Part shown: piece after piece, positions 54,861-59,678 of the stretch | Numbering within the stretch: position 1 is the first letter of the stretch | Layout: the number at the start of each line of letters is the position of its first letter | Assembly (NCBI GenBank): GCA_017467625.1 | Contig: JAFUSN010000004.1 | Coordinates: 146,259 to 210,258, forward strand | Source of the DNA: Clostridia bacterium | Lineage (GTDB): Bacteria > Bacillota > Clostridia > Christensenellales > UBA1242 | Reading direction: 5' to 3' | DNA length: 64,000 nucleotides | Translations under genes and position numbers: made by a program | The notes under the pieces: model-generated | The model's input: the letters and a program-made list of their open reading frames with translations, nothing else | The model's database searches: none | What the model was told of the DNA's origin: nothing

Positions 54861-55442
54861 TTAAACGGTGCGTCTAATTTTTCTTTTTGCTCGTGTTAAA
54901 TAAGTAACCCCAAATGCACCAGTCATAATTATTGGTGTGAAAATTGAAACATACATCATTACAACAGGAACAATTGTTTTGCTCAAATCTCCAACTGTTT
55001 CAACATTGGCGGTTATTGTGGAATAAATTGAAAAGGTTAAAGATAAAATAGCAGCAACAAAAATTAAAATATTGGCTAATTTAAACTTGTCTTGTGCAAC
55101 CATAAATGCACCCATTGTTCCAAATAGCAATGTTAAAAGTATTTTTTGAAAGGTATCTCTATATGGAAGAATGTTGTTTATGAGAATGGCTAGCAAAAAG
55201 AAAGCTATTGCTGCAATATAATAAAATTTTGATTTTCCATATCCAAATAAAGCATAAACAAATAATGACAAAAAAGATAGAATTATTGCAATTGAATTTG
55301 CAAGCATATTATTAAGCCCATTTTTCACAATGAAAGTTAGCAGGCCAATTTGTGCAACAAATCCAACAATTGTTAAAATCATTTGCAAAAACAACATCAT
55401 TGCATTGTTTTTGGTTAAACCGAATTTTGTTTCTGTATCCAT
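54861..55442 (-). CDS. Integral membrane protein (about 6 TM), unknown function
   Basis: 193 aa, hydrophobic, followed on the minus strand by the hairpin accactaaac/gtttagtggt at 54819-54843. Confidence 0.55.
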   Translation of the reverse strand: MDTETKFGLTKNNAMMLFLQMILTIVGFVAQIGLLTFIVKNGLNNMLANSIAIILSFLSLFVYALFGYGKSKFYYIAAIAFFLLAILINNILPYRDTFQKILLTLLFGTMGAFMVAQDKFKLANILIFVAAILSLTFSIYSTITANVETVGDLSKTIVPVVMMYVSIFTPIIMTGAFGVTYLTRAKRKIRRTV

Positions 55443-55814
55443 ATTTTCTCCTAAGTTTAAAGTAATTATATTTTATTACAAACATTGTTTTTGTGCAAAC
55501 AAATACAAATAATTTAAAGAACAAAGATAATAACAATTTTTAATGATAAACTTTAATATTGTTTATTTTGTGAAAAACAAAAAGATAGTGTTAAAGAAAT
55601 GTCCGATGAAGAAATGAACGATATTCTTGAAAGATTACTAAGCGTTCGTCAATAACGAAAGAAAAAAAAGAAAGAGATTTTGAGATGTAAATTTAATAAA
55701 AATGGCACTCAAGTATTTATTTTCAAAAATTTCATGATAGAATGAAAGAAAAAGGTTGGAGAGGTTTTAATGTTTCTCCGACCTTTTGCATTAAATGAGG
55801 AGATTTGATATAAT

Positions 55815-56429
55815 ATGGGTATATTTGATGATTTATTAGGAAACTGGATTCAAATAATTGATGAGCAAAATGAAATTACAATAGATAATTATGGATATGA
55901 GACAGGTGTAATTGAAGGAACGACAGGAAATCACTGTGTGAAATGTGTTGCTGTAAATAAATGTTGGTTTAAGAACGAAAAAGAAAAGAAACCAGAAAAA
56001 TTTAACTATACAGGGGTTAGTATTGTTGATACGATTGCAAAAGGTTTATTTCCTGGCTTATATCACTATAGATGTCATTGTAAAGATATACCAATTTAAG
56101 TGTCTTCAATAGAATCTATCCAATTGTTAGTATCAGAAGGTAAGAAAAATTGGCTCATAAAAGACAAAATTGATTGGATAAAATCGTTTGGATATCACGA
56201 TGTTAATGCTTTTGTGAATACTTTATTACATAAAACTCAAGAAGCATATTTTTACGGAAACTATATTATAGTTAATCATACAAAATATGGATGTAAAATT
56301 AATTTACAAGTAGATATTCCTGGTGTAAACGAAAAAAGTGGAAAAATTTACAAAGTTAAAACTAATTATATGATTTTTCCAAACGGAAAATTAAAATGCA
56401 ATACTTTATTAGGAGGTTGGCAAAATTGA
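55815..56429 (+). pseudogene. Remnant of a MuF (SPP1 gp7)-type polymorphic-toxin C-terminus: MuF-end fragment plus a DUF6883-like cargo domain, interrupted by an in-frame TAA
   Basis: ORFs 55815-56099 and 56100-56429 share one frame and are separated only by TAA at 56097-56099. The first carries NHCVKCVAVNKCWF...PGLYHYRCHC (compare the MuF C..C...G..F...P.H.NCRC pattern). The second carries SFGY...TKYGCKINLQVDIPG...KVKTNYMIFPNGK. The N-terminal bulk of MuF is absent. Confidence 0.5.
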
Positions 56430-56800
56430 AATATTTAGATGATGTTAGAGTCTTAAATGACAATTACAAAGATGAAGGCATAACAAAAGACATGGTAGGA
56501 ACAATTATTGAACCAGATATAAGGTGGAATAGTTTTTTTGTTGTTTTTCAAGATCAACGCGCTTATGATAAAAAATTTATAAGTACAGAGGGCAATATTT
56601 ACAAATTAAATGATGATATTTGTACTGGAATAAAAATAAAAGATTTAGAATTAGTTAAAGATAATAATTGTACAGACTTATTAATATTGAATGACTTACC
56701 AGAAAATCACAAAGATTGGTGGTGTAAGGTTGAAGATGGGTTTATTTTAAACTTAAAAGGTGAAAGAAAAAATAAAATCCCATATGATTATGACAGTTAA
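56426..56800 (+). CDS. DUF4926-like (SH3-like) putative immunity/antitoxin protein
   Basis: KYLDDVRVLNDNYKDEGITKDMVGTIIEPD...FFVVFQD matches the pattern I recall for DUF4926. A TTG start at 56426 has an AGGAGG RBS 9 nt upstream and a TTGA overlap with the preceding stop. The ORF-track ATG at 56396 is the alternative. Confidence 0.5.
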   Translation: MKYLDDVRVLNDNYKDEGITKDMVGTIIEPDIRWNSFFVVFQDQRAYDKKFISTEGNIYKLNDDICTGIKIKDLELVKDNNCTDLLILNDLPENHKDWWCKVEDGFILNLKGERKNKIPYDYDS

Positions 56801-56812
56801 ATGGTGACAAGA

Positions 56813-56990
56813 ATGAAAAAATTAGATTTAGTAAAGTTAAAAAATGATAAGCCTTATTAAAATTAAAGAATATGATATGGTGGAATTGCTTGTTGAATAA
56901 GATAGATACGCCAAGTTTGGGATACATAAAGGCGATAGAGGTTGTGTTATGGATAATAATGCAGTCCAAAATTATATTGTTGATTTTTTT
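56813..56990 (+). pseudogene. Decayed second immunity-like gene (frameshift plus in-frame TAA)
   Basis: MKKLDLVKLKNDKPY* then, in the +1 frame, IKIKEYDMVELLVE*DRYAKFGIHKGDRGCVMDNNAVQNYIVDFF. It has the same architecture as the neighbouring DUF4926-like gene but is broken twice. Confidence 0.4.
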
Positions 56991-56994
56991 ATGC

Positions 56995-57080
56995 TGGAGC
57001 TATATGTGCGGGAATAAGGTCTTCGACCTTTGTCTCCGCTTACGCTTCGCCGAGCGAACCAGTCCGATTCAAAAACCCCG
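56995..57080 (-). repeat. Degenerate copy of the 3' half of tRNA-Thr (integration/att footprint or tRNA pseudogene)
   Basis: Plus strand TGGAGCTA-tatgt-GCGGGAAT (56995-57015) compared with TGGAGCTA-ctg-GCGGGAAT at the tRNA 3' end (57147-57165). Similarity continues through a GGTCG variable-loop block. The segment is locally GC-rich and non-coding. Confidence 0.45.
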
Positions 57081-57112
57081 TTTCTAAAAGCTGACGATTT
57101 TCCGCCTTAACC

Positions 57113-57138
57113 ATAAAAAAAAGAAGACTTCCGTCTTC
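57113..57138 (-). terminator. Rho-independent terminator of tRNA-Thr
   Basis: On the minus strand: gaagac-ggaa-gtcttc followed by T8. Confidence 0.7.
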
Positions 57139-57146
57139 CCTTTTTA

Positions 57147-57221
57147 TGGAGCTACTGGCGGGAATCGGACCCGCGACCGCCGCATTACCAATGCGGTGCT
57201 CTACCACTGAGCCACAGTAGC
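57147..57221 (-). tRNA. tRNA-Thr (GGT)
   Basis: The reverse complement folds as acceptor GCTACTG/CAGTAGC, D arm GCTC-AGTGGTA-GAGC, anticodon stem CCGCA/TGCGG with loop TTGGTAA, T arm GCGGG-TCCGATT-CCCGC, encoded CCA. Confidence 0.9.
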
Positions 57222-57242
57222 ACTATTTTTGTAAACGTTGTA

Positions 57243-57272
57243 ATTATAAAACAAAAGAACAGACATTGTCAA
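57243..57272 (-). promoter_or_regulatory. Promoter of tRNA-Thr
   Basis: On the minus strand: TTGACA (57272-57267), 18-nt spacer, TATAAT (57248-57243). Confidence 0.55.
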
Positions 57273-57309
57273 TAATTTTAATAAAAGTTATTGAGCGTCT
57301 GTTTTTTTA

Positions 57310-58293
57310 TTACTGAAATGTTTTCATATATTCAAGAAGTTCTTGTTCAAGAGATTCAAGCCTTGAAATTTCGTCATTCGTTGTGGCTTTTGCTCTTGCT
57401 GATTCAATGCGCGCCTTGAGGGATTGAGCACAATCAAATTTATTAATTTTTCTTTCATATTCAACAGCTTGTTTTGGTGTAACAATAAAATCTGTTTGCG
57501 TTAAATTTTGAGTTGGAAAATCCATTAAGTTTAAAATGTTAATTTGTTCAGCAGAAAGTTTATTATTTATTGTTCTGTAAATAGGAACTGGCTCTAATTT
57601 TGATGTTGCGCCTCTCTTTAAAATTTCAATTATGTCGCAAGCTCCAGTTTTGTACATATAGTCAATTGTTTCAGGGAGCCCATTATAAGCCAAGTCATGA
57701 TTTTCTGGGGGAACCCATCTGCAACTTCCAGTTTGCGCAAGTTCCAATTGACATCTTTCAATCATTGACATTTTGCTTTCAAAATCAGATACAGCGAGCG
57801 CTCTAACAATAACAATGTATCCAGCCTTTTTTAATTTTGCGATTGCGTTGTCAACAATAAAATTGTTTTTAAGTGTTTGATGCAAAATGATGTTATATTT
57901 TCCCTCAATCATTTTATCAATCATTCTTGGTGTTGCAGCAAATGATAACTGGTCTGTTAAATCCGTAAAAAGCTCAGGATAGTTTTCATTTATTTCTGCA
58001 ACAGCTGGGTGAGAATGCCTGTAAATATCATTATCAATAATTGCAGTATTTTCATTTAAATAGGAAATTGAATTTCCAATTATACTTGTTTTTCCAGCCC
58101 CAGGCTGTCCACCTGCAACAATTGCAATTGGGTGTTTTTGTGGTGAAATTGAACAAATTTGTGATTGGAAAATATTTTCTAAAACTTTTTCAAATTCTTC
58201 ACCTTTAATATTATAATCGTCAATTGTTTTTCCGTATTTTTTTAGTCTTTCGTTTATTTCATTTTGCCTTTTACTCATATTAGCATTAGCCAT
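57310..58293 (-). CDS. Zeta-toxin-family P-loop kinase (paralog 1)
   Basis: Walker A GGQPGAGKT. IIDNDIYRHSHP (compare the zeta/PezT IDxDxFR..HP pattern). TDQLSFAATP. HQTLK. Start at MANANMSK (58293) with an AAGGAG RBS, rather than 58356. Confidence 0.8.
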   Translation of the reverse strand: MANANMSKRQNEINERLKKYGKTIDDYNIKGEEFEKVLENIFQSQICSISPQKHPIAIVAGGQPGAGKTSIIGNSISYLNENTAIIDNDIYRHSHPAVAEINENYPELFTDLTDQLSFAATPRMIDKMIEGKYNIILHQTLKNNFIVDNAIAKLKKAGYIVIVRALAVSDFESKMSMIERCQLELAQTGSCRWVPPENHDLAYNGLPETIDYMYKTGACDIIEILKRGATSKLEPVPIYRTINNKLSAEQINILNLMDFPTQNLTQTDFIVTPKQAVEYERKINKFDCAQSLKARIESARAKATTNDEISRLESLEQELLEYMKTFQ

Positions 58294-58501
58294 TATTTCT
58301 CCTTCGTAGCATTGGTAAATATTCATCAATAGCTTTATCAATTGTGTTTTTATCATTGCGCAAAATCAAGTTTCTTTCTAATGTAAGCATTTTAACAAAT
58401 TCTTTATCTGTCACTTCATTTGAATTTGCAAATATCATTAAAAGTTCATTAACGGTGTCAAATGCCAAATCCTTTTTCATTTCGTCATTCATAAGCTCCA
58501 C
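58286..58501 (-). CDS. Small acidic helical protein, putative cognate antitoxin (epsilon-like position)
   Basis: 71 aa. It overlaps the zeta paralog 1 start by 8 nt. The start is ambiguous: GTG at 58501 or ATG at 58492. It is a weak paralog of ORF 59457-59678 (..IDKAIDEY.. against ..VIDELLEEY..). Confidence 0.55.
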   Translation of the reverse strand: MELMNDEMKKDLAFDTVNELLMIFANSNEVTDKEFVKMLTLERNLILRNDKNTIDKAIDEYLPMLRRRNNG

Positions 58502-59464
58502 CTATTTTTTTGCACGAATTTCTTTAACTGTTTGTCTCAAAATTTTAATTCTGTCTTTTGCTTCGCTTGGTTCATGCCCACAAATCAAAAAGTCGTCAAA
58601 AGCAGCATCAATCAAACGATCATCAATTTTTTTAAGAGTTTCATCTTCGCTTAAAATTCTTCCATTTTTAATTGCGTCCACAGAGTTTTTATAAGTGTTC
58701 TCAATATTTGTTTTAAAATATTTTTCAATTAGTTCGTTTTCTTGCGCAGTATTTTTTTCATTGAGTTTGCAATAAATAATTCTTGGCGATGTTGGGTTTG
58801 TTTTTCCACGCATTACAACTTGAATGAAGTTGTAGTTTTTAATATCATTTTCAATGTATGAAAGGGTATCGGGGATTGAATTAAAAGCTTTGTCGTGATT
58901 AATTGGGTCAACCCATCTGCAAGTTCTGTCAATTTTAAGTTGAACCAAGCATCTTTCCATCATTGAAAGGTAACTTTCAACACTTGCTACGGCAAGTGCC
59001 ATAACTCCAACGGTGTAACCATTGTCTCTAAGTTTTTGCATTGCGTCATCTGCAATTCTTTTGCTTTTCAATGTTTGGTGAATAACAAGGTTATATTTTC
59101 CCTTAATCATTCTATCAATAATGATTGGGGTTGCATAAAAACTTAATTGATCAGTGCAATCTGTCATAAGTTCCGCATATTTTGAATTTATTTCTTTAAT
59201 TTTAGGATGAAATTCACGATATGTATCATTATCAATAATAATATTGTCATCTTTCAAACACTTTTGAGCATATCCAATAATTCCAGTTTTTCCACCACCT
59301 GATTGTCCACCAACGACAACAGCGATTGGATGCTCATGTGATTGAACTCCAAGTGTTAAACAATCACAAATAAGGTCAATTGTTTTATCAAGTTCTTCTT
59401 GGCTGAGTTCATATTTTTTTGCAATTTCTTGAATTTCTTCTGATGAATATTTATCGTTAACCAA
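58502..59464 (-). CDS. Zeta-toxin-family P-loop kinase (paralog 2)
   Basis: Walker A GGQSGGGKT. IIDNDTYREFHP. TDQLSFYATP. HQTLK. CRWVDPINHD. Collinear similarity to paralog 1 throughout the core. Confidence 0.8.
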   Translation of the reverse strand: MVNDKYSSEEIQEIAKKYELSQEELDKTIDLICDCLTLGVQSHEHPIAVVVGGQSGGGKTGIIGYAQKCLKDDNIIIDNDTYREFHPKIKEINSKYAELMTDCTDQLSFYATPIIIDRMIKGKYNLVIHQTLKSKRIADDAMQKLRDNGYTVGVMALAVASVESYLSMMERCLVQLKIDRTCRWVDPINHDKAFNSIPDTLSYIENDIKNYNFIQVVMRGKTNPTSPRIIYCKLNEKNTAQENELIEKYFKTNIENTYKNSVDAIKNGRILSEDETLKKIDDRLIDAAFDDFLICGHEPSEAKDRIKILRQTVKEIRAKK

Positions 59465-59678
59465 TTGCGTTCCCCCTTGAATTTTCGTATTCTTCTAAAA
59501 GTTCATCAATAACTTTTTTGTTAAAGTGATAAACTTGTTTGCGCATTTCTAAAATACGCAAAACTTTTTCATTGTTAATGTTTTTACTTTGAACACATGC
59601 TTCGCCAAGCATTTTCTCAACTATGGCTTTTGCAAGTTCAATTTTTGTGTTATTTTCCATAAAATTGCTACTTCCCAT
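59457..59678 (-). CDS. Small helical protein, putative cognate antitoxin of zeta paralog 2
   Basis: 73 aa, with an 8-nt overlap onto the downstream zeta gene. Confidence 0.55.
   Translation of the reverse strand: MGSSNFMENNTKIELAKAIVEKMLGEACVQSKNINNEKVLRILEMRKQVYHFNKKVIDELLEEYENSRGNAIG

What the first reader, a model, noticed from the sequence alone, without database searches (positions are those of the whole stretch)
55815..56800. Orphan MuF-type polymorphic-toxin tip interrupted by an in-frame TAA, followed by a translationally coupled immunity-like gene
ORFs 55815-56099 and 56100-56429 are in the same frame and are separated only by TAA at 56097-56099. The first ends with a C..C...F...P..H..C.C pattern (NHCVKCVAVNKCWF...PGLYHYRCHC), which resembles the C-terminal end of the SPP1 gp7/MuF head-morphogenesis domain. 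The second resembles the small cargo domain I recall as DUF6883. The next gene (TTG start at 56426, AGGAGG RBS, TTGA overlap) resembles DUF4926. Established knowledge: temperate-phage MuF proteins can carry C-terminal toxin domains followed by an immunity gene (MuF polymorphic toxins). In this window the MuF N-terminal bulk and all other phage genes are missing. The cassette therefore looks like a displaced or orphan toxin-immunity tip, of the kind kept for recombinational swapping or for immunity alone.
Basis: partly seen in the sequence, partly recalled or inferred. Interest (0 to 1): 0.55.

Follow-up and report, generated by a model that had tools for sequence, protein, structure and literature searches.

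The report
Broken RNase toxin gene with immunity
This is an ordinary small toxin–immunity gene pair of a recently described kind (a predicted RNase toxin plus its protective partner); in this one assembly the toxin gene carries a very recent premature stop codon, and the immunity gene is intact.

Summary
ORFs 55815-56099 and 56100-56429 share a frame and are split only by TAA. A 124-aa gene starts at TTG 56426 in a TTGA overlap.

The "orphan tip" interpretation is wrong. The two ORFs are one complete, stand-alone ~204-aa gene that is widespread in uncultured gut Clostridia. More than 100 homologue clusters span both halves, and the 124-aa partner always follows directly.

A contig from the same lineage is 99.95% identical over 6.4 kb. 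Its only three differences lie within 11 bp and include GAA→TAA. Seven contigs encode the intact protein. Only this MAG has the stop. It is therefore a very recent loss-of-function allele or a consensus error.

- The C-half is a divergent DUF6883/BECR-Tox3 predicted RNase (hhalign 99.2%).
- The partner is SH3-like, with sub-threshold DUF4926 hits.
- The N-half carries the MuF C-terminal Cys/His signature, with weak statistics.

No window protein reaches any Pfam threshold, and no phage genes are nearby.

In 12 of 79 species representatives the toxin is independently broken while the immunity gene stays intact. True 3' toxin fragments with immunity genes do occur in relatives. This is a new member of a known kind, of low to moderate interest.

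The parts
55815..56429 (+). Complete ~204-codon toxin gene (mini-MuF-like N module + DUF6883/BECR-Tox3 C domain), interrupted by one in-frame TAA
   Evidence: 103 homologue clusters of ~203-209 aa cover 100% of the fused translation. The intact allele P0224 lies in the syntenic contig L013/L015.
55797..55802 (+). GAGGAG Shine-Dalgarno-like sequence, 12 nt before ATG 55815; conserved in relatives
   Evidence: Read from the sequence. AAGGAGATTTGATATAATATG is invariant in the window, L009, L010 and L011.
55815..56096 (+). N-terminal 94-aa Cys/His module (C41-x2-C44 ... F52 ... P60 ... H84-x2-C87-H88-C89); probable zinc binder resembling the C-terminal signature of the MuF/SPP1 gp7 domain
   Evidence: C44, H84, C87 and C89 are invariant across 35 diverse N-domains. 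The AF2 model has pLDDT 90.9. The top BFVD hit is 'Minor capsid protein', E 2.4e-4. hhalign aligns the module to the MuF motif with P = 0.008. There is no Pfam hit.
56087..56097 (+). Cluster of the only three differences from a 6375-bp syntenic contig: 56087 G>T (E90D), 56090 G>A (M91I), 56097 G>T (E95 to stop)
   Evidence: blastn and base-by-base comparison with L013.
56097..56099 (+). Premature TAA (GAA/Glu in the closest relatives), in the variable linker between the two domains
   Evidence: Protein and DNA alignments.
56100..56429 (+). C-terminal toxin domain (residues 96-204): divergent DUF6883/BECR-Tox3, two helices plus a four-stranded sheet; family-wide conserved K110, K118, G126-Y127, Y150, N196-T197
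   Evidence: The profile hits Pfam-positive DUF6883 C-termini. hhalign gives 99.2%, E 1.1e-19 over 106 columns. Secondary structure comes from the AF2 model.
56411..56416 (+). AGGAGG Shine-Dalgarno sequence for the immunity gene, inside the end of the toxin gene
   Evidence: Read from the sequence.
56426..56800 (+). Intact 124-aa immunity gene (TTG start, TTGA overlap): SH3-like barrel plus a C-terminal tail; distant DUF4926 relative
   Evidence: 345 homologues, almost all 124-126 aa. 18 of 56 give weak DUF4926 hits. AF2 pLDDT is 94.6, with SH3/KOW-like fold matches. The gene directly follows the toxin in essentially all 79 GTDB loci.
56813..57017 (+). Decayed second immunity-like gene: short ORF MKKLDLVKLKNDKPY*, then a frame-shifted stretch with an in-frame TAA at 56898-56900
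   Evidence: Six-frame translation. With X at the stop it hits DUF4926 at E 0.0018, 18.1 bits, profile positions 1-38 of 57.

Best explanation
The locus is a self-contained two-gene toxin-immunity cassette.

Gene 1 (55815-56429) encodes a ~204-aa protein. Its N-terminal module is a ~95-aa Cys/His, probably zinc-binding, unit that looks like the last third of the phage MuF domain. Its C-terminal domain is a ~105-aa divergent member of DUF6883/BECR-Tox3, a family predicted to be a metal-independent RNase of the colicin-like BECR fold.

Gene 2 (56426-56800) is translationally coupled through a TTGA overlap. It encodes a 124-aa SH3-like protein distantly related to DUF4926. Its inferred role is to bind and neutralise the toxin.

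In this assembly the toxin gene is knocked out by a premature TAA in the inter-domain linker, and the immunity gene is intact. The stop belongs to a cluster of three substitutions within 11 bp that is private to this MAG. I think it is most likely a very recent loss-of-function allele. That would match a recurrent pattern in this family, in which toxins decay and immunity genes persist. A consensus error cannot be excluded.

Shown here: the anatomy, the full-length family, homology of the C-domain to DUF6883, conserved pairing with the immunity gene, the privacy of the TAA, and the asymmetric decay of toxin versus immunity. Inferred: RNase activity, neutralisation by direct binding, zinc binding, and whether the toxin acts inside the producer cell (TA-like) or is delivered to other cells.
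For: **Full-length family.** 103 homologue clusters of ~203-209 aa cover both halves. Glu aligns with the stop.

**Private TAA.** L013 is 99.953% identical over 6375 bp, with only 56087 G>T, 56090 G>A and 56097 G>T differing. The intact protein P0224 is on 7 contigs. The 94-aa product is known only from NCBI MBQ8451752.1, on a single 660-kb MAG contig.

**C-domain.**
- An hmmsearch of 1.84e9 proteins finds the domain at the C-termini of long proteins at E 1e-9 to 1e-11.
- Of the ten scanned, eight score 27.8-38.7 bits on Pfam PF21814, above its 27-bit gathering cut-off, and two score 22.4 and 25.8 bits.
- Three of these proteins carry N-terminal Tox-PAAR-like or PG_binding_1 domains.
- hhalign gives 99.2% probability, E 1.1e-19.
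- The AF2 model (pLDDT 90.9) shows two helices plus a 4-stranded sheet.

**Literature.** DUF6883 = BECR-Tox3. It is commonly followed by DUF4926 and often fused to Phage_Mu_F (bioRxiv 10.64898/2026.08.28.747851). MuF-PBECR fusions were described earlier (PMC5512222).

**Immunity gene.**
- 345 homologues, almost all 124-126 aa.
- Weak DUF4926 hits in 18 of 56.
- SH3-like model.
- It is adjacent to the toxin in essentially all 79 GTDB loci.
- It also follows the Pfam-positive DUF6883 sister toxin P0305.

**Toxin/immunity asymmetry.** The toxin is disrupted in 12 of 79 species representatives by different lesions, and the immunity gene is intact in all 12. L016 and L018 show the same pattern.
Against: - No window protein, and none of 70 close homologues, reaches any Pfam, NCBIfam, PHROG or PADLOC threshold.
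- Foldseek against the PDB gives nothing significant. The best ParE/PrpT-like matches have TM about 0.48 and E above 0.5.
- No experiment supports toxicity, RNase activity or neutralisation for this family or for DUF6883.
- The homologues are almost all from MAGs, so some frameshifts counted as toxin decay could be assembly errors.
- The three clustered G>T/A changes, seen in one assembly only, could themselves be an artefact.
- The immunity protein has no recognisable DNA-binding domain, and no secretion or delivery apparatus is nearby. The way the toxin is deployed is therefore unresolved.
Confidence: 0.78

Rival explanations
1. One reading: the cassette is a displaced or orphan 3' tip of a large prophage MuF polymorphic toxin, kept for recombinational swapping or for immunity alone.
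For: - The N-half carries the MuF C-terminal signature, and BFVD hits are 'Minor capsid protein'.
- DUF6883 is reported as fused to Phage_Mu_F.
- Real 3' toxin fragments followed by immunity genes occur in relatives: L061, L065, L071, L081, L101, L103.
- A decayed second immunity-like gene lies downstream.
Against: - The window gene is full length for its family. It has a conserved ATG and Shine-Dalgarno sequence, and more than 100 clusters are ~204 aa with nothing upstream.
- It differs by 3 nt from an intact 204-aa allele in the same synteny.
- Neighbourhoods in about 8 distinct contexts hold housekeeping genes, an integrase or a T4SS coupling protein, and no portal, terminase or capsid genes.
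- tblastn against 50,697 phage records finds nothing.
Confidence: 0.04
2. The TAA, with the two neighbouring substitutions, is an assembly or consensus artefact or a minor haplotype. The organism actually carries an intact, ordinary toxin gene.
For: - Only 1 of 8 contigs of this lineage has it; 7 encode the intact protein.
- The 94-aa product is absent from the Logan and ENA re-assemblies, although at least one ENA record carrying the identical immunity gene is labelled XIEF21-1, possibly the MAG's own study.
- Three changes within 11 bp in 6.4 kb of otherwise identical sequence is an unusual pattern.
Against: - Short-read de Bruijn consensus rarely introduces three clustered substitutions. 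Such a cluster behaves as one haplotype bubble and so reflects real reads.
- Independent nonsense, frameshift and deletion lesions in 12 of 79 species show that inactivation of this gene is common.
Confidence: 0.33
3. The split is functional. Termination at TAA and re-initiation at the adjacent GTG 56100 yield a separate Zn module and a free toxin domain, giving a three-component system.
For: - GTG follows the TAA directly.
- The break falls in the variable inter-domain linker.
- L107 is frameshifted at the same junction.
Against: - There is no Shine-Dalgarno sequence before GTG 56100.
- The GTG is simply the ancestral Val codon, also present in the intact allele.
- Lesions in other species are scattered (residues ~25, 58, 77, 82, 121, 126) and include deletions of the toxin core.
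- The allele is private to one assembly.
Confidence: 0.04
4. The pair is not a toxin-immunity system at all. It is a two-gene operon of unrelated function whose first gene merely shares a fold with DUF6883.
For: - There is no experimental evidence for DUF6883 toxicity.
- No catalytic His is conserved in the C-domain.
- There are no significant PDB fold matches.
Against: - The same domain sits at the C-terminus of PAAR-like and peptidoglycan-binding polymorphic-toxin scaffolds.
- Some genomes carry multiple copies, some loci carry tandem arrays with extra copies of gene 2, and 3' fragments of gene 1 occur.
- Decay is strongly asymmetric: gene 1 is broken in 12 of 79 loci with gene 2 intact in all 12.
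- N- and C-domains are shuffled, with rho 0.16.
Confidence: 0.07

Closest known systems
BECR-Tox3 / DUF6883 (PF21814) toxins paired with DUF4926, as defined in bioRxiv 10.64898/2026.08.28.747851
   Same: The C-domain is homologous to Pfam-positive DUF6883 domains. It is followed by a small SH3-like gene with DUF4926-like signal. It is preceded by a MuF-like element. The gene order is toxin then immunity.
   Different: The window subfamily is too divergent for the Pfam models. The immunity protein is 124 aa, an SH3-like core plus a ~40-aa conserved tail, whereas the DUF4926 model is ~57 positions. The MuF part is reduced to a ~95-aa Cys/His module.
MuF polymorphic toxins of temperate phages (Jamet et al. 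2017, PMC5576092)
   Same: The logic is an N-terminal MuF-type element, a C-terminal extension of at least 100 aa carrying a toxin domain, and then a small ORF under 150 aa. The group is enriched in Firmicutes.
   Different: There is no full MuF domain and no Pfam PF04233 match. The gene is not in a head-morphogenesis module and no portal or terminase gene is nearby. The whole protein is only ~204 aa, and some genomes carry several copies.
PBECR domains fused to MuF or portal in phages (Iyer et al. 2017, PMC5512222)
   Same: A predicted BECR-fold RNase is attached to MuF. The active site is proposed to combine a basic or His residue in the N-terminal helix with a C-terminal Thr/Ser. Here K110 and K118 lie in the helix and N196-T197 in the last strand, all conserved family-wide.
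   Different: A direct relationship to the PBECR1-6 clades was not tested. No His is conserved. The context is not phage or virion.
Orphan toxin-tip/immunity cassettes of CDI, Rhs and LXG polymorphic toxin loci
   Same: Relatives carry tandem arrays of extra immunity genes and of 3' toxin fragments with their own immunity genes. N- and C-domains recombine independently.
   Different: The window copy is a complete gene with a point nonsense lesion, not a 5'-truncated fragment. No large upstream main toxin gene exists.
Colicin D / colicin E5 nuclease domains with their immunity proteins; RelE/ParE toxins
   Same: These have a compact alpha/beta BECR-type topology. There are weak Foldseek similarities to ParE and PrpT, TM about 0.48. 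The inhibitor is encoded immediately downstream.
   Different: There is no significant sequence or fold match. The immunity fold is SH3-like rather than colicin-Imm-like or an RHH/Phd-type antitoxin.

Membership tests
DUF6883 (PF21814) / BECR-Tox3 | Match to the Pfam model at or above the gathering score (27 bits) | tested here: not met
   There is no PF21814 hit for the window C-half, for the fused protein, or for any of 70 close homologues, even at E up to 10 or 0.1.
DUF6883 (PF21814) / BECR-Tox3 | Demonstrable homology to bona fide (Pfam-positive) DUF6883 domains | tested here: met
   The A2 profile hits P0329, P0338, P0342, P0345, P0361, P0363, P0368 and P0371 at E 1e-9 to 1e-11 in 1.84e9 proteins. 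These score 27.8-38.7 bits on PF21814. hhalign gives 99.2% probability, E 1.1e-19, over 106 columns.
DUF6883 (PF21814) / BECR-Tox3 | BECR-type alpha/beta topology (N-terminal helices packed on a 4-stranded antiparallel sheet) | tested here: inconclusive
DUF6883 (PF21814) / BECR-Tox3 | Ribonuclease activity and toxicity neutralised by the downstream protein | not testable with these tools
   This needs expression and RNA-cleavage assays. The indirect support is asymmetric decay: the toxin is broken in 12 of 79 loci and the immunity gene is intact in all 12.
Phage_Mu_F (PF04233) / MuF polymorphic toxin | Match to the Pfam MuF model at or above the gathering score (29.6 bits) | tested here: not met
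   There is no hit for the window N-half or for 70 homologues. Only 4 of 35 diverse N-domains give hits, best E 0.031, the same level as an unrelated noise family. Sister proteins P0263 and P0297 score 12-13 bits on model positions 59/73-111 of 112.
Phage_Mu_F (PF04233) / MuF polymorphic toxin | MuF C-terminal signature (C/T-x2-C/H ... G ... F ... P ... H-P-N-C-R-C) | tested here: inconclusive
   The motif is present and invariant: C44, H84, C87, C89. Sister proteins have a literal HPNCRC. hhalign against 11 phage MuF proteins aligns exactly this motif, but with P = 0.0079 and probability 5%. The top BFVD Foldseek hit is 'Minor capsid protein', E 2.4e-4.
Phage_Mu_F (PF04233) / MuF polymorphic toxin | Full MuF head-morphogenesis domain N-terminal to the toxin | tested here: not met
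   The protein starts about 40 residues before the motif. The family length is 203-209 aa and nothing lies upstream.
Phage_Mu_F (PF04233) / MuF polymorphic toxin | Location in a prophage packaging or head module next to portal and terminase genes | tested here: not met
   Neighbours in the window and in about 8 other contexts are housekeeping genes, other TA genes, an integrase or a T4SS gene. There is no tblastn match in 50,697 phage records.
DUF4926 (PF16277) | Match to the Pfam model at or above the gathering score (29.1 bits) | tested here: not met
   There is no hit for the window protein. 18 of 56 homologues give sub-threshold hits, best E 8.5e-4.
DUF4926 (PF16277) | Small SH3-like beta-barrel encoded directly downstream of a DUF6883 toxin | tested here: met
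   The AF2 model (pLDDT 94.6) matches SH3/KOW-like barrels such as 3c4s_A (probability 1.0, TM-target 0.78, E 0.055) and NusG KOW. The gene is adjacent to the toxin in essentially all loci. It also follows the Pfam-positive DUF6883 protein P0305.
Orphan toxin-tip + immunity cassette | Toxin part is a 5'-truncated fragment lacking its own N-terminus and start | tested here: not met
   The window gene has the family's complete N-terminus, ATG and Shine-Dalgarno sequence. It is 3 nt away from an intact allele. True fragments exist in relatives L061, L065, L071, L081, L101 and L103.
Type II toxin-antitoxin system | Antitoxin with a DNA-binding domain that autoregulates the operon; toxin acts in the producing cell | not tested
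   No HTH, RHH or AbrB signal was found in the 124-aa protein. Regulation and site of action cannot be determined computationally here.

The most novel reading that the evidence does not exclude
The ~204-aa proteins form a previously undefined, non-phage 'mini-MuF' polymorphic toxin family of uncultured gut Clostridia (Christensenella-like lineages).

In this reading, a constant ~95-aa zinc module derived from the MuF C-terminus is recombined with variable DUF6883 RNase tips. The swapped cassette would be [toxin C-domain + 5' two-thirds of the immunity gene], exchanged between two conserved flanks: the N-module and the 3' tail of the immunity gene. The immunity tail (residues 86-124) co-varies with the N-module and may bind it. 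The N-module could act as a delivery signal, for example trans-packaging into capsids of resident phages.
Probability: 0.25. Interest if true: 0.55.

Novelty: new member of a known kind. Interest (0 to 1): 0.27.

Why it matters
For this window it matters little. The feature is a known type of toxin-immunity pair whose toxin gene has a very recent stop codon, or a consensus error, and genome annotation should mark 55815-56429 as one interrupted gene.

The family behind it is somewhat more useful.
- It is abundant in uncultured gut Clostridia and invisible to Pfam, NCBIfam, PHROGs and PADLOC.
- It provides compact, testable examples of the untested DUF6883/BECR-Tox3 RNase prediction.
- Its repeated toxin decay with immunity retention, and its cassette arrays, give comparative evidence that the pair really is a toxin and its immunity.
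- It raises the question of what a MuF-derived zinc module does outside a phage head.

Tried and rejected
**Direct family scans.** Pfam, NCBIfam, PHROGs and PADLOC scans of the three window proteins found nothing above noise: Oxysterol_BP E 0.076, DruK E 0.033.

**Fold searches.**
- Foldseek of the toxin model against the PDB gave no match with E below 0.5. CorA, NTF2-like, OCP and UEV/E2 hits were rejected as noise.

**Weak profile matches to solved structures, all rejected.**
- E2 ubiquitin-conjugating enzyme UBE2J2 (MIFPNGKLKCNT against MITPNGRFKCNT), E 1.6. The aligned Cys is not conserved in the family, and the position of the catalytic Cys is Gly-Gly.
- Cas12f zinc ribbon for the N-domain, E 0.24. 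This only suggests a CxxC...CxC zinc-ribbon-like core.
- Beta2-microglobulin for the immunity protein, E 0.78: noise.

**Stop-codon reassignment.** Rejected, for four reasons.
- Long ORFs in the window end mostly in TAA: 46 TAA, 7 TAG, 3 TGA.
- Relatives have sense codons at the position.
- Same-lineage contigs have GAA.
- The 207-aa gene calls (P0003, P0224) are table-4 read-through artefacts of the TGA in the overlap.

Premature TGA or TAG at Trp positions in L018, L081, L082 and L106 are ordinary TGG>TGA/TAG mutations. L082 and L106 also end other long ORFs in TGA.

**Searches that found nothing.**
- The last word-indexed protein search, with the N-domain profile, returned only family members and no MuF proteins.
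- Exact-pattern scans for all eight haplotype combinations found nothing in GTDB genomes or JGI metagenomes.
- tblastn against phage records found nothing.
- No att-like direct repeats or tRNA fragments bound the cassette, and there are no Rfam hits other than tRNA-Thr.
Full report
**1. Observation**

- ATG 55815 opens a 94-codon frame that ends at TAA 56097-56099.
- GTG 56100 continues in the same frame for 109 codons to TGA 56427-56429.
- A third ORF in another frame starts at TTG 56426-56428, giving a TTGA overlap, and is preceded by AGGAGG at 56411-56416.
- The motif NHCVKCVAVNKCWF...PGLYHYRCHC is present.

**2. The two ORFs are one gene**

I searched with the fused translation, with X at the stop. 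This returned 103 clusters, nearly all 203-209 aa, covering 100% of the query. None carried a precomputed Pfam domain for this region.

In protein and DNA alignments the TAA aligns with a sense codon. It is Glu/GAA in the closest relatives and lies in a variable linker between two conserved blocks.

The family is therefore a stand-alone ~204-aa protein with its own conserved start and Shine-Dalgarno sequence. It is not the 3' end of something larger.

**3. How old is the stop?**

The window's 124-aa downstream protein occurs with an identical sequence on 10 contigs. One of them, L013, shares the window's synteny: D-Tyr-tRNA deacylase, an ATP-grasp gene, a 193-aa membrane protein, the toxin and immunity genes, then two zeta-toxin genes.

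L013 is 99.953% identical to the window over 6375 bp. The only three mismatches lie within 11 bp.

| Position | Change | Effect |
|---|---|---|
| 56087 | G>T | E90D |
| 56090 | G>A | M91I |
| 56097 | G>T | E95 to stop |

The intact protein (P0224) is on 7 contigs. The 94-aa product is recorded only as NCBI MBQ8451752.1 (IJ538_03135, 'MAG: Clostridia bacterium') on one 660-kb contig.

The lesion is therefore private to this MAG. It is either a very recent allele, perhaps one multi-nucleotide mutation event, or a consensus error. Read mapping is the only way to decide. I lean slightly towards a real allele because inactivation of this gene is common in the family (section 6).

**4. What the proteins are**

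Direct scans of the window proteins, and of 70 homologues, against Pfam, NCBIfam, PHROGs and PADLOC gave nothing. Remote homology is informative.

*C-domain.* A profile of 70 family members was searched against 1.84 billion representatives and found 364 proteins.
- The C-domain (profile positions ~84/100/117 to 203) recurs at the C-termini of 300-530-aa proteins at E 1e-9 to 1e-11.
- All ten that I scanned hit Pfam DUF6883. Eight score above the 27-bit gathering cut-off, up to 38.7 bits.
- Three of them carry N-terminal Tox-PAAR-like or PG_binding_1 domains, which are classic polymorphic-toxin scaffolds.
- hhalign of the family against these DUF6883 tips gives 99.2% probability, E 1.1e-19, over 106 columns.

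*Literature.* A 2026 preprint equates DUF6883 with 'BECR-Tox3', a colicin-like BECR-fold predicted RNase. It reports that the domain is usually followed by DUF4926 and often fused to Phage_Mu_F. Iyer et al. 2017 had described MuF-PBECR fusions.

*Toxin model.* The AF2 model (pLDDT 90.9, pTM 0.86) shows two helices and a four-stranded sheet in the C-domain. Foldseek against the PDB finds only weak ParE/PrpT-like similarity. Residues conserved in both our family and the bona fide DUF6883 tips include K110, K118, G126-Y127, Y150 and N196-T197. By analogy with the helix-base plus C-terminal-Thr arrangement described for PBECR and colicin D, I infer that K110/K118 and T197 are catalytic candidates.

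*Immunity gene.*
- 345 homologues, almost all 124-126 aa.
- 18 of 56 give sub-threshold DUF4926 hits, best E 8.5e-4.
- The model (pLDDT 94.6) is an SH3/KOW-like barrel plus a conserved ~40-aa tail.
- The same family follows more distant sister toxins, including the Pfam-positive DUF6883 protein P0305.

*N-domain.*
- Across 35 diverse sequences C44, H84, C87 and C89 are invariant, and C41, F52 and P60 nearly so.
- Sister proteins carry a literal ...C-x2-C-VAVNKC-F...P-x-HPNCRC, which is the MuF signature.
- Pfam Phage_Mu_F hits are at noise level: 4 of 35, best E 0.031.
- hhalign against SPP1 gp7 plus ten phage MuF proteins aligns exactly the signature, but with P = 0.008 and probability 5%.
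- The best BFVD Foldseek hits are 'Minor capsid protein' (E 2.4e-4) and a 'Zinc-binding metallo-peptidase'.

I regard descent from the MuF C-terminus as likely, at about 70%, but not proven. The protein is not a member of the MuF family as defined. It has no MuF bulk, no Pfam match and no head-module context.

**5. Context**

About eight independent neighbourhoods hold housekeeping genes, other TA genes, an integrase or a conjugative coupling protein. None holds portal, terminase or capsid genes.

tblastn against 50,697 phage records finds nothing.

In the window the cassette lies between a membrane-protein gene and tRNA-Thr (57147-57221, minus strand). Beyond the tRNA there are two epsilon/zeta-like pairs. 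No att-like repeats bound the cassette.

**6. Family-level behaviour**

A scan of one genome per GTDB species returned 79 loci. Almost all come from uncultured gut Clostridia or Christensenella-like MAGs, and several genomes hold 2-3 copies.

HMM mapping shows the following.
- The immunity gene abuts or overlaps the toxin gene in essentially every locus.
- At least 13 loci hold extra immunity copies, up to four in tandem.
- At least six loci hold 3' toxin fragments, starting at HMM positions 113-172, each with its own immunity gene. These are genuine 'orphan tips'.

The primary toxin gene is disrupted in 12 of 79 representatives.

| Lesion | Loci |
|---|---|
| In-frame deletion | L051 |
| Frameshift | L053, L068, L083, L107 |
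| Multiple lesions | L090 |
| Premature TAA | L091 |
| Premature TAG | L081 |
| Premature TGA | L082, L106 |
| 5' truncation | L075, L103 |

The stops in L081, L082 and L106 replace Trp codons. The immunity gene is full length in all 12. L016 (8 contigs) and L018 show the same pattern.

This asymmetry is what a toxin-immunity pair predicts. Some lesions may nevertheless be MAG errors.

Among 64 intact pairs:
- N- and C-domain identities are nearly uncorrelated (rho 0.16), and one N-type is combined with eight C-types.
- Immunity residues 1-85 track the C-domain (rho about 0.34).
- The immunity tail, residues 86-124, tracks the N-domain (rho 0.45) and not the C-domain (rho 0.06).

This suggests that a cassette [C-domain + 5' part of the immunity gene] is exchanged between conserved flanks. 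The evidence is suggestive and has not been corrected for phylogeny.

**7. Verdict**

The feature is not an orphan MuF toxin tip. It is a complete, stand-alone mini-MuF-like/DUF6883 toxin gene with its SH3-like immunity gene. That kind of system was already described in 2026. In this assembly it carries a private, very recent premature stop or an error.

Novelty: new member of a known kind. Interest: low to moderate.

Noticed in passing
window 56813-57017 (+): A decayed second immunity-like gene lies after the intact one. It consists of a 15-codon ORF whose start resembles the immunity N-terminus (MKKLDLVKLKNDKPY*) and then a frame-shifted stretch with an in-frame TAA at 56898-56900. With X at the stop, that stretch hits DUF4926 (E 0.0018). 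The remnant is also present in the 99.95%-identical contig L013, so it is older than the toxin's TAA.
   Followed up: partly
window 57310-59678 (-): Two tandem zeta-toxin genes (PF06414, E 1e-30 and 3e-29) are each preceded by a small 71/73-aa ORF. They are presumably epsilon/zeta-type TA pairs and lie just beyond tRNA-Thr. The region is therefore a small cluster of toxin modules.
   Followed up: partly
window 57147-57221 (-): tRNA-Thr(GGT) lies immediately downstream of the cassette and has a perfect TTGACA-18-TATAAT promoter match at 57272-57243. No att-like repeat of the tRNA 3' end was found in 55300-57400.
   Followed up: yes
window 55751-55789 (+): An imperfect hairpin (AAAGGTTGGAGA ... 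TCTCCGACCTTT) sits just upstream of the toxin's Shine-Dalgarno sequence and is conserved in L011. Similarity between cassettes in different genomic contexts (L009/L010) begins only about 35 bp before the ATG, which may mark the left edge of the mobile unit.
   Followed up: no
L001 8612-9997; L002 (same locus): In one metagenome the immunity gene is present as two identical tandem copies plus a third partial copy (73 aa). A near-identical locus from another sample shows no called immunity genes at all after the toxin.
   Followed up: partly
P0003, P0224 and other 207-aa gene calls (L001, L013, L015): Public metagenomic gene calls extend the toxin by 3 residues (…WQNWNI). The low-GC contigs were called with genetic code 4, which reads the TGA of the TTGA/ATGA overlap as Trp. 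This is an annotation artefact, not recoding.
   Followed up: yes
64 toxin-immunity pairs from L030-L108: The last ~40 residues of the immunity protein co-vary with the toxin's N-terminal zinc module (rho 0.45) and not with the toxin domain (rho 0.06). The SH3-like part tracks the toxin domain. The explanation may be cassette-swap flanks or a physical contact. The analysis is not corrected for phylogeny.
   Followed up: partly
window 55600-55656 (+): A tiny ORF (MSDEEMNDILERLLSVRQ*) lies in the 370-bp spacer upstream of the cassette. It was not examined further.
   Followed up: no
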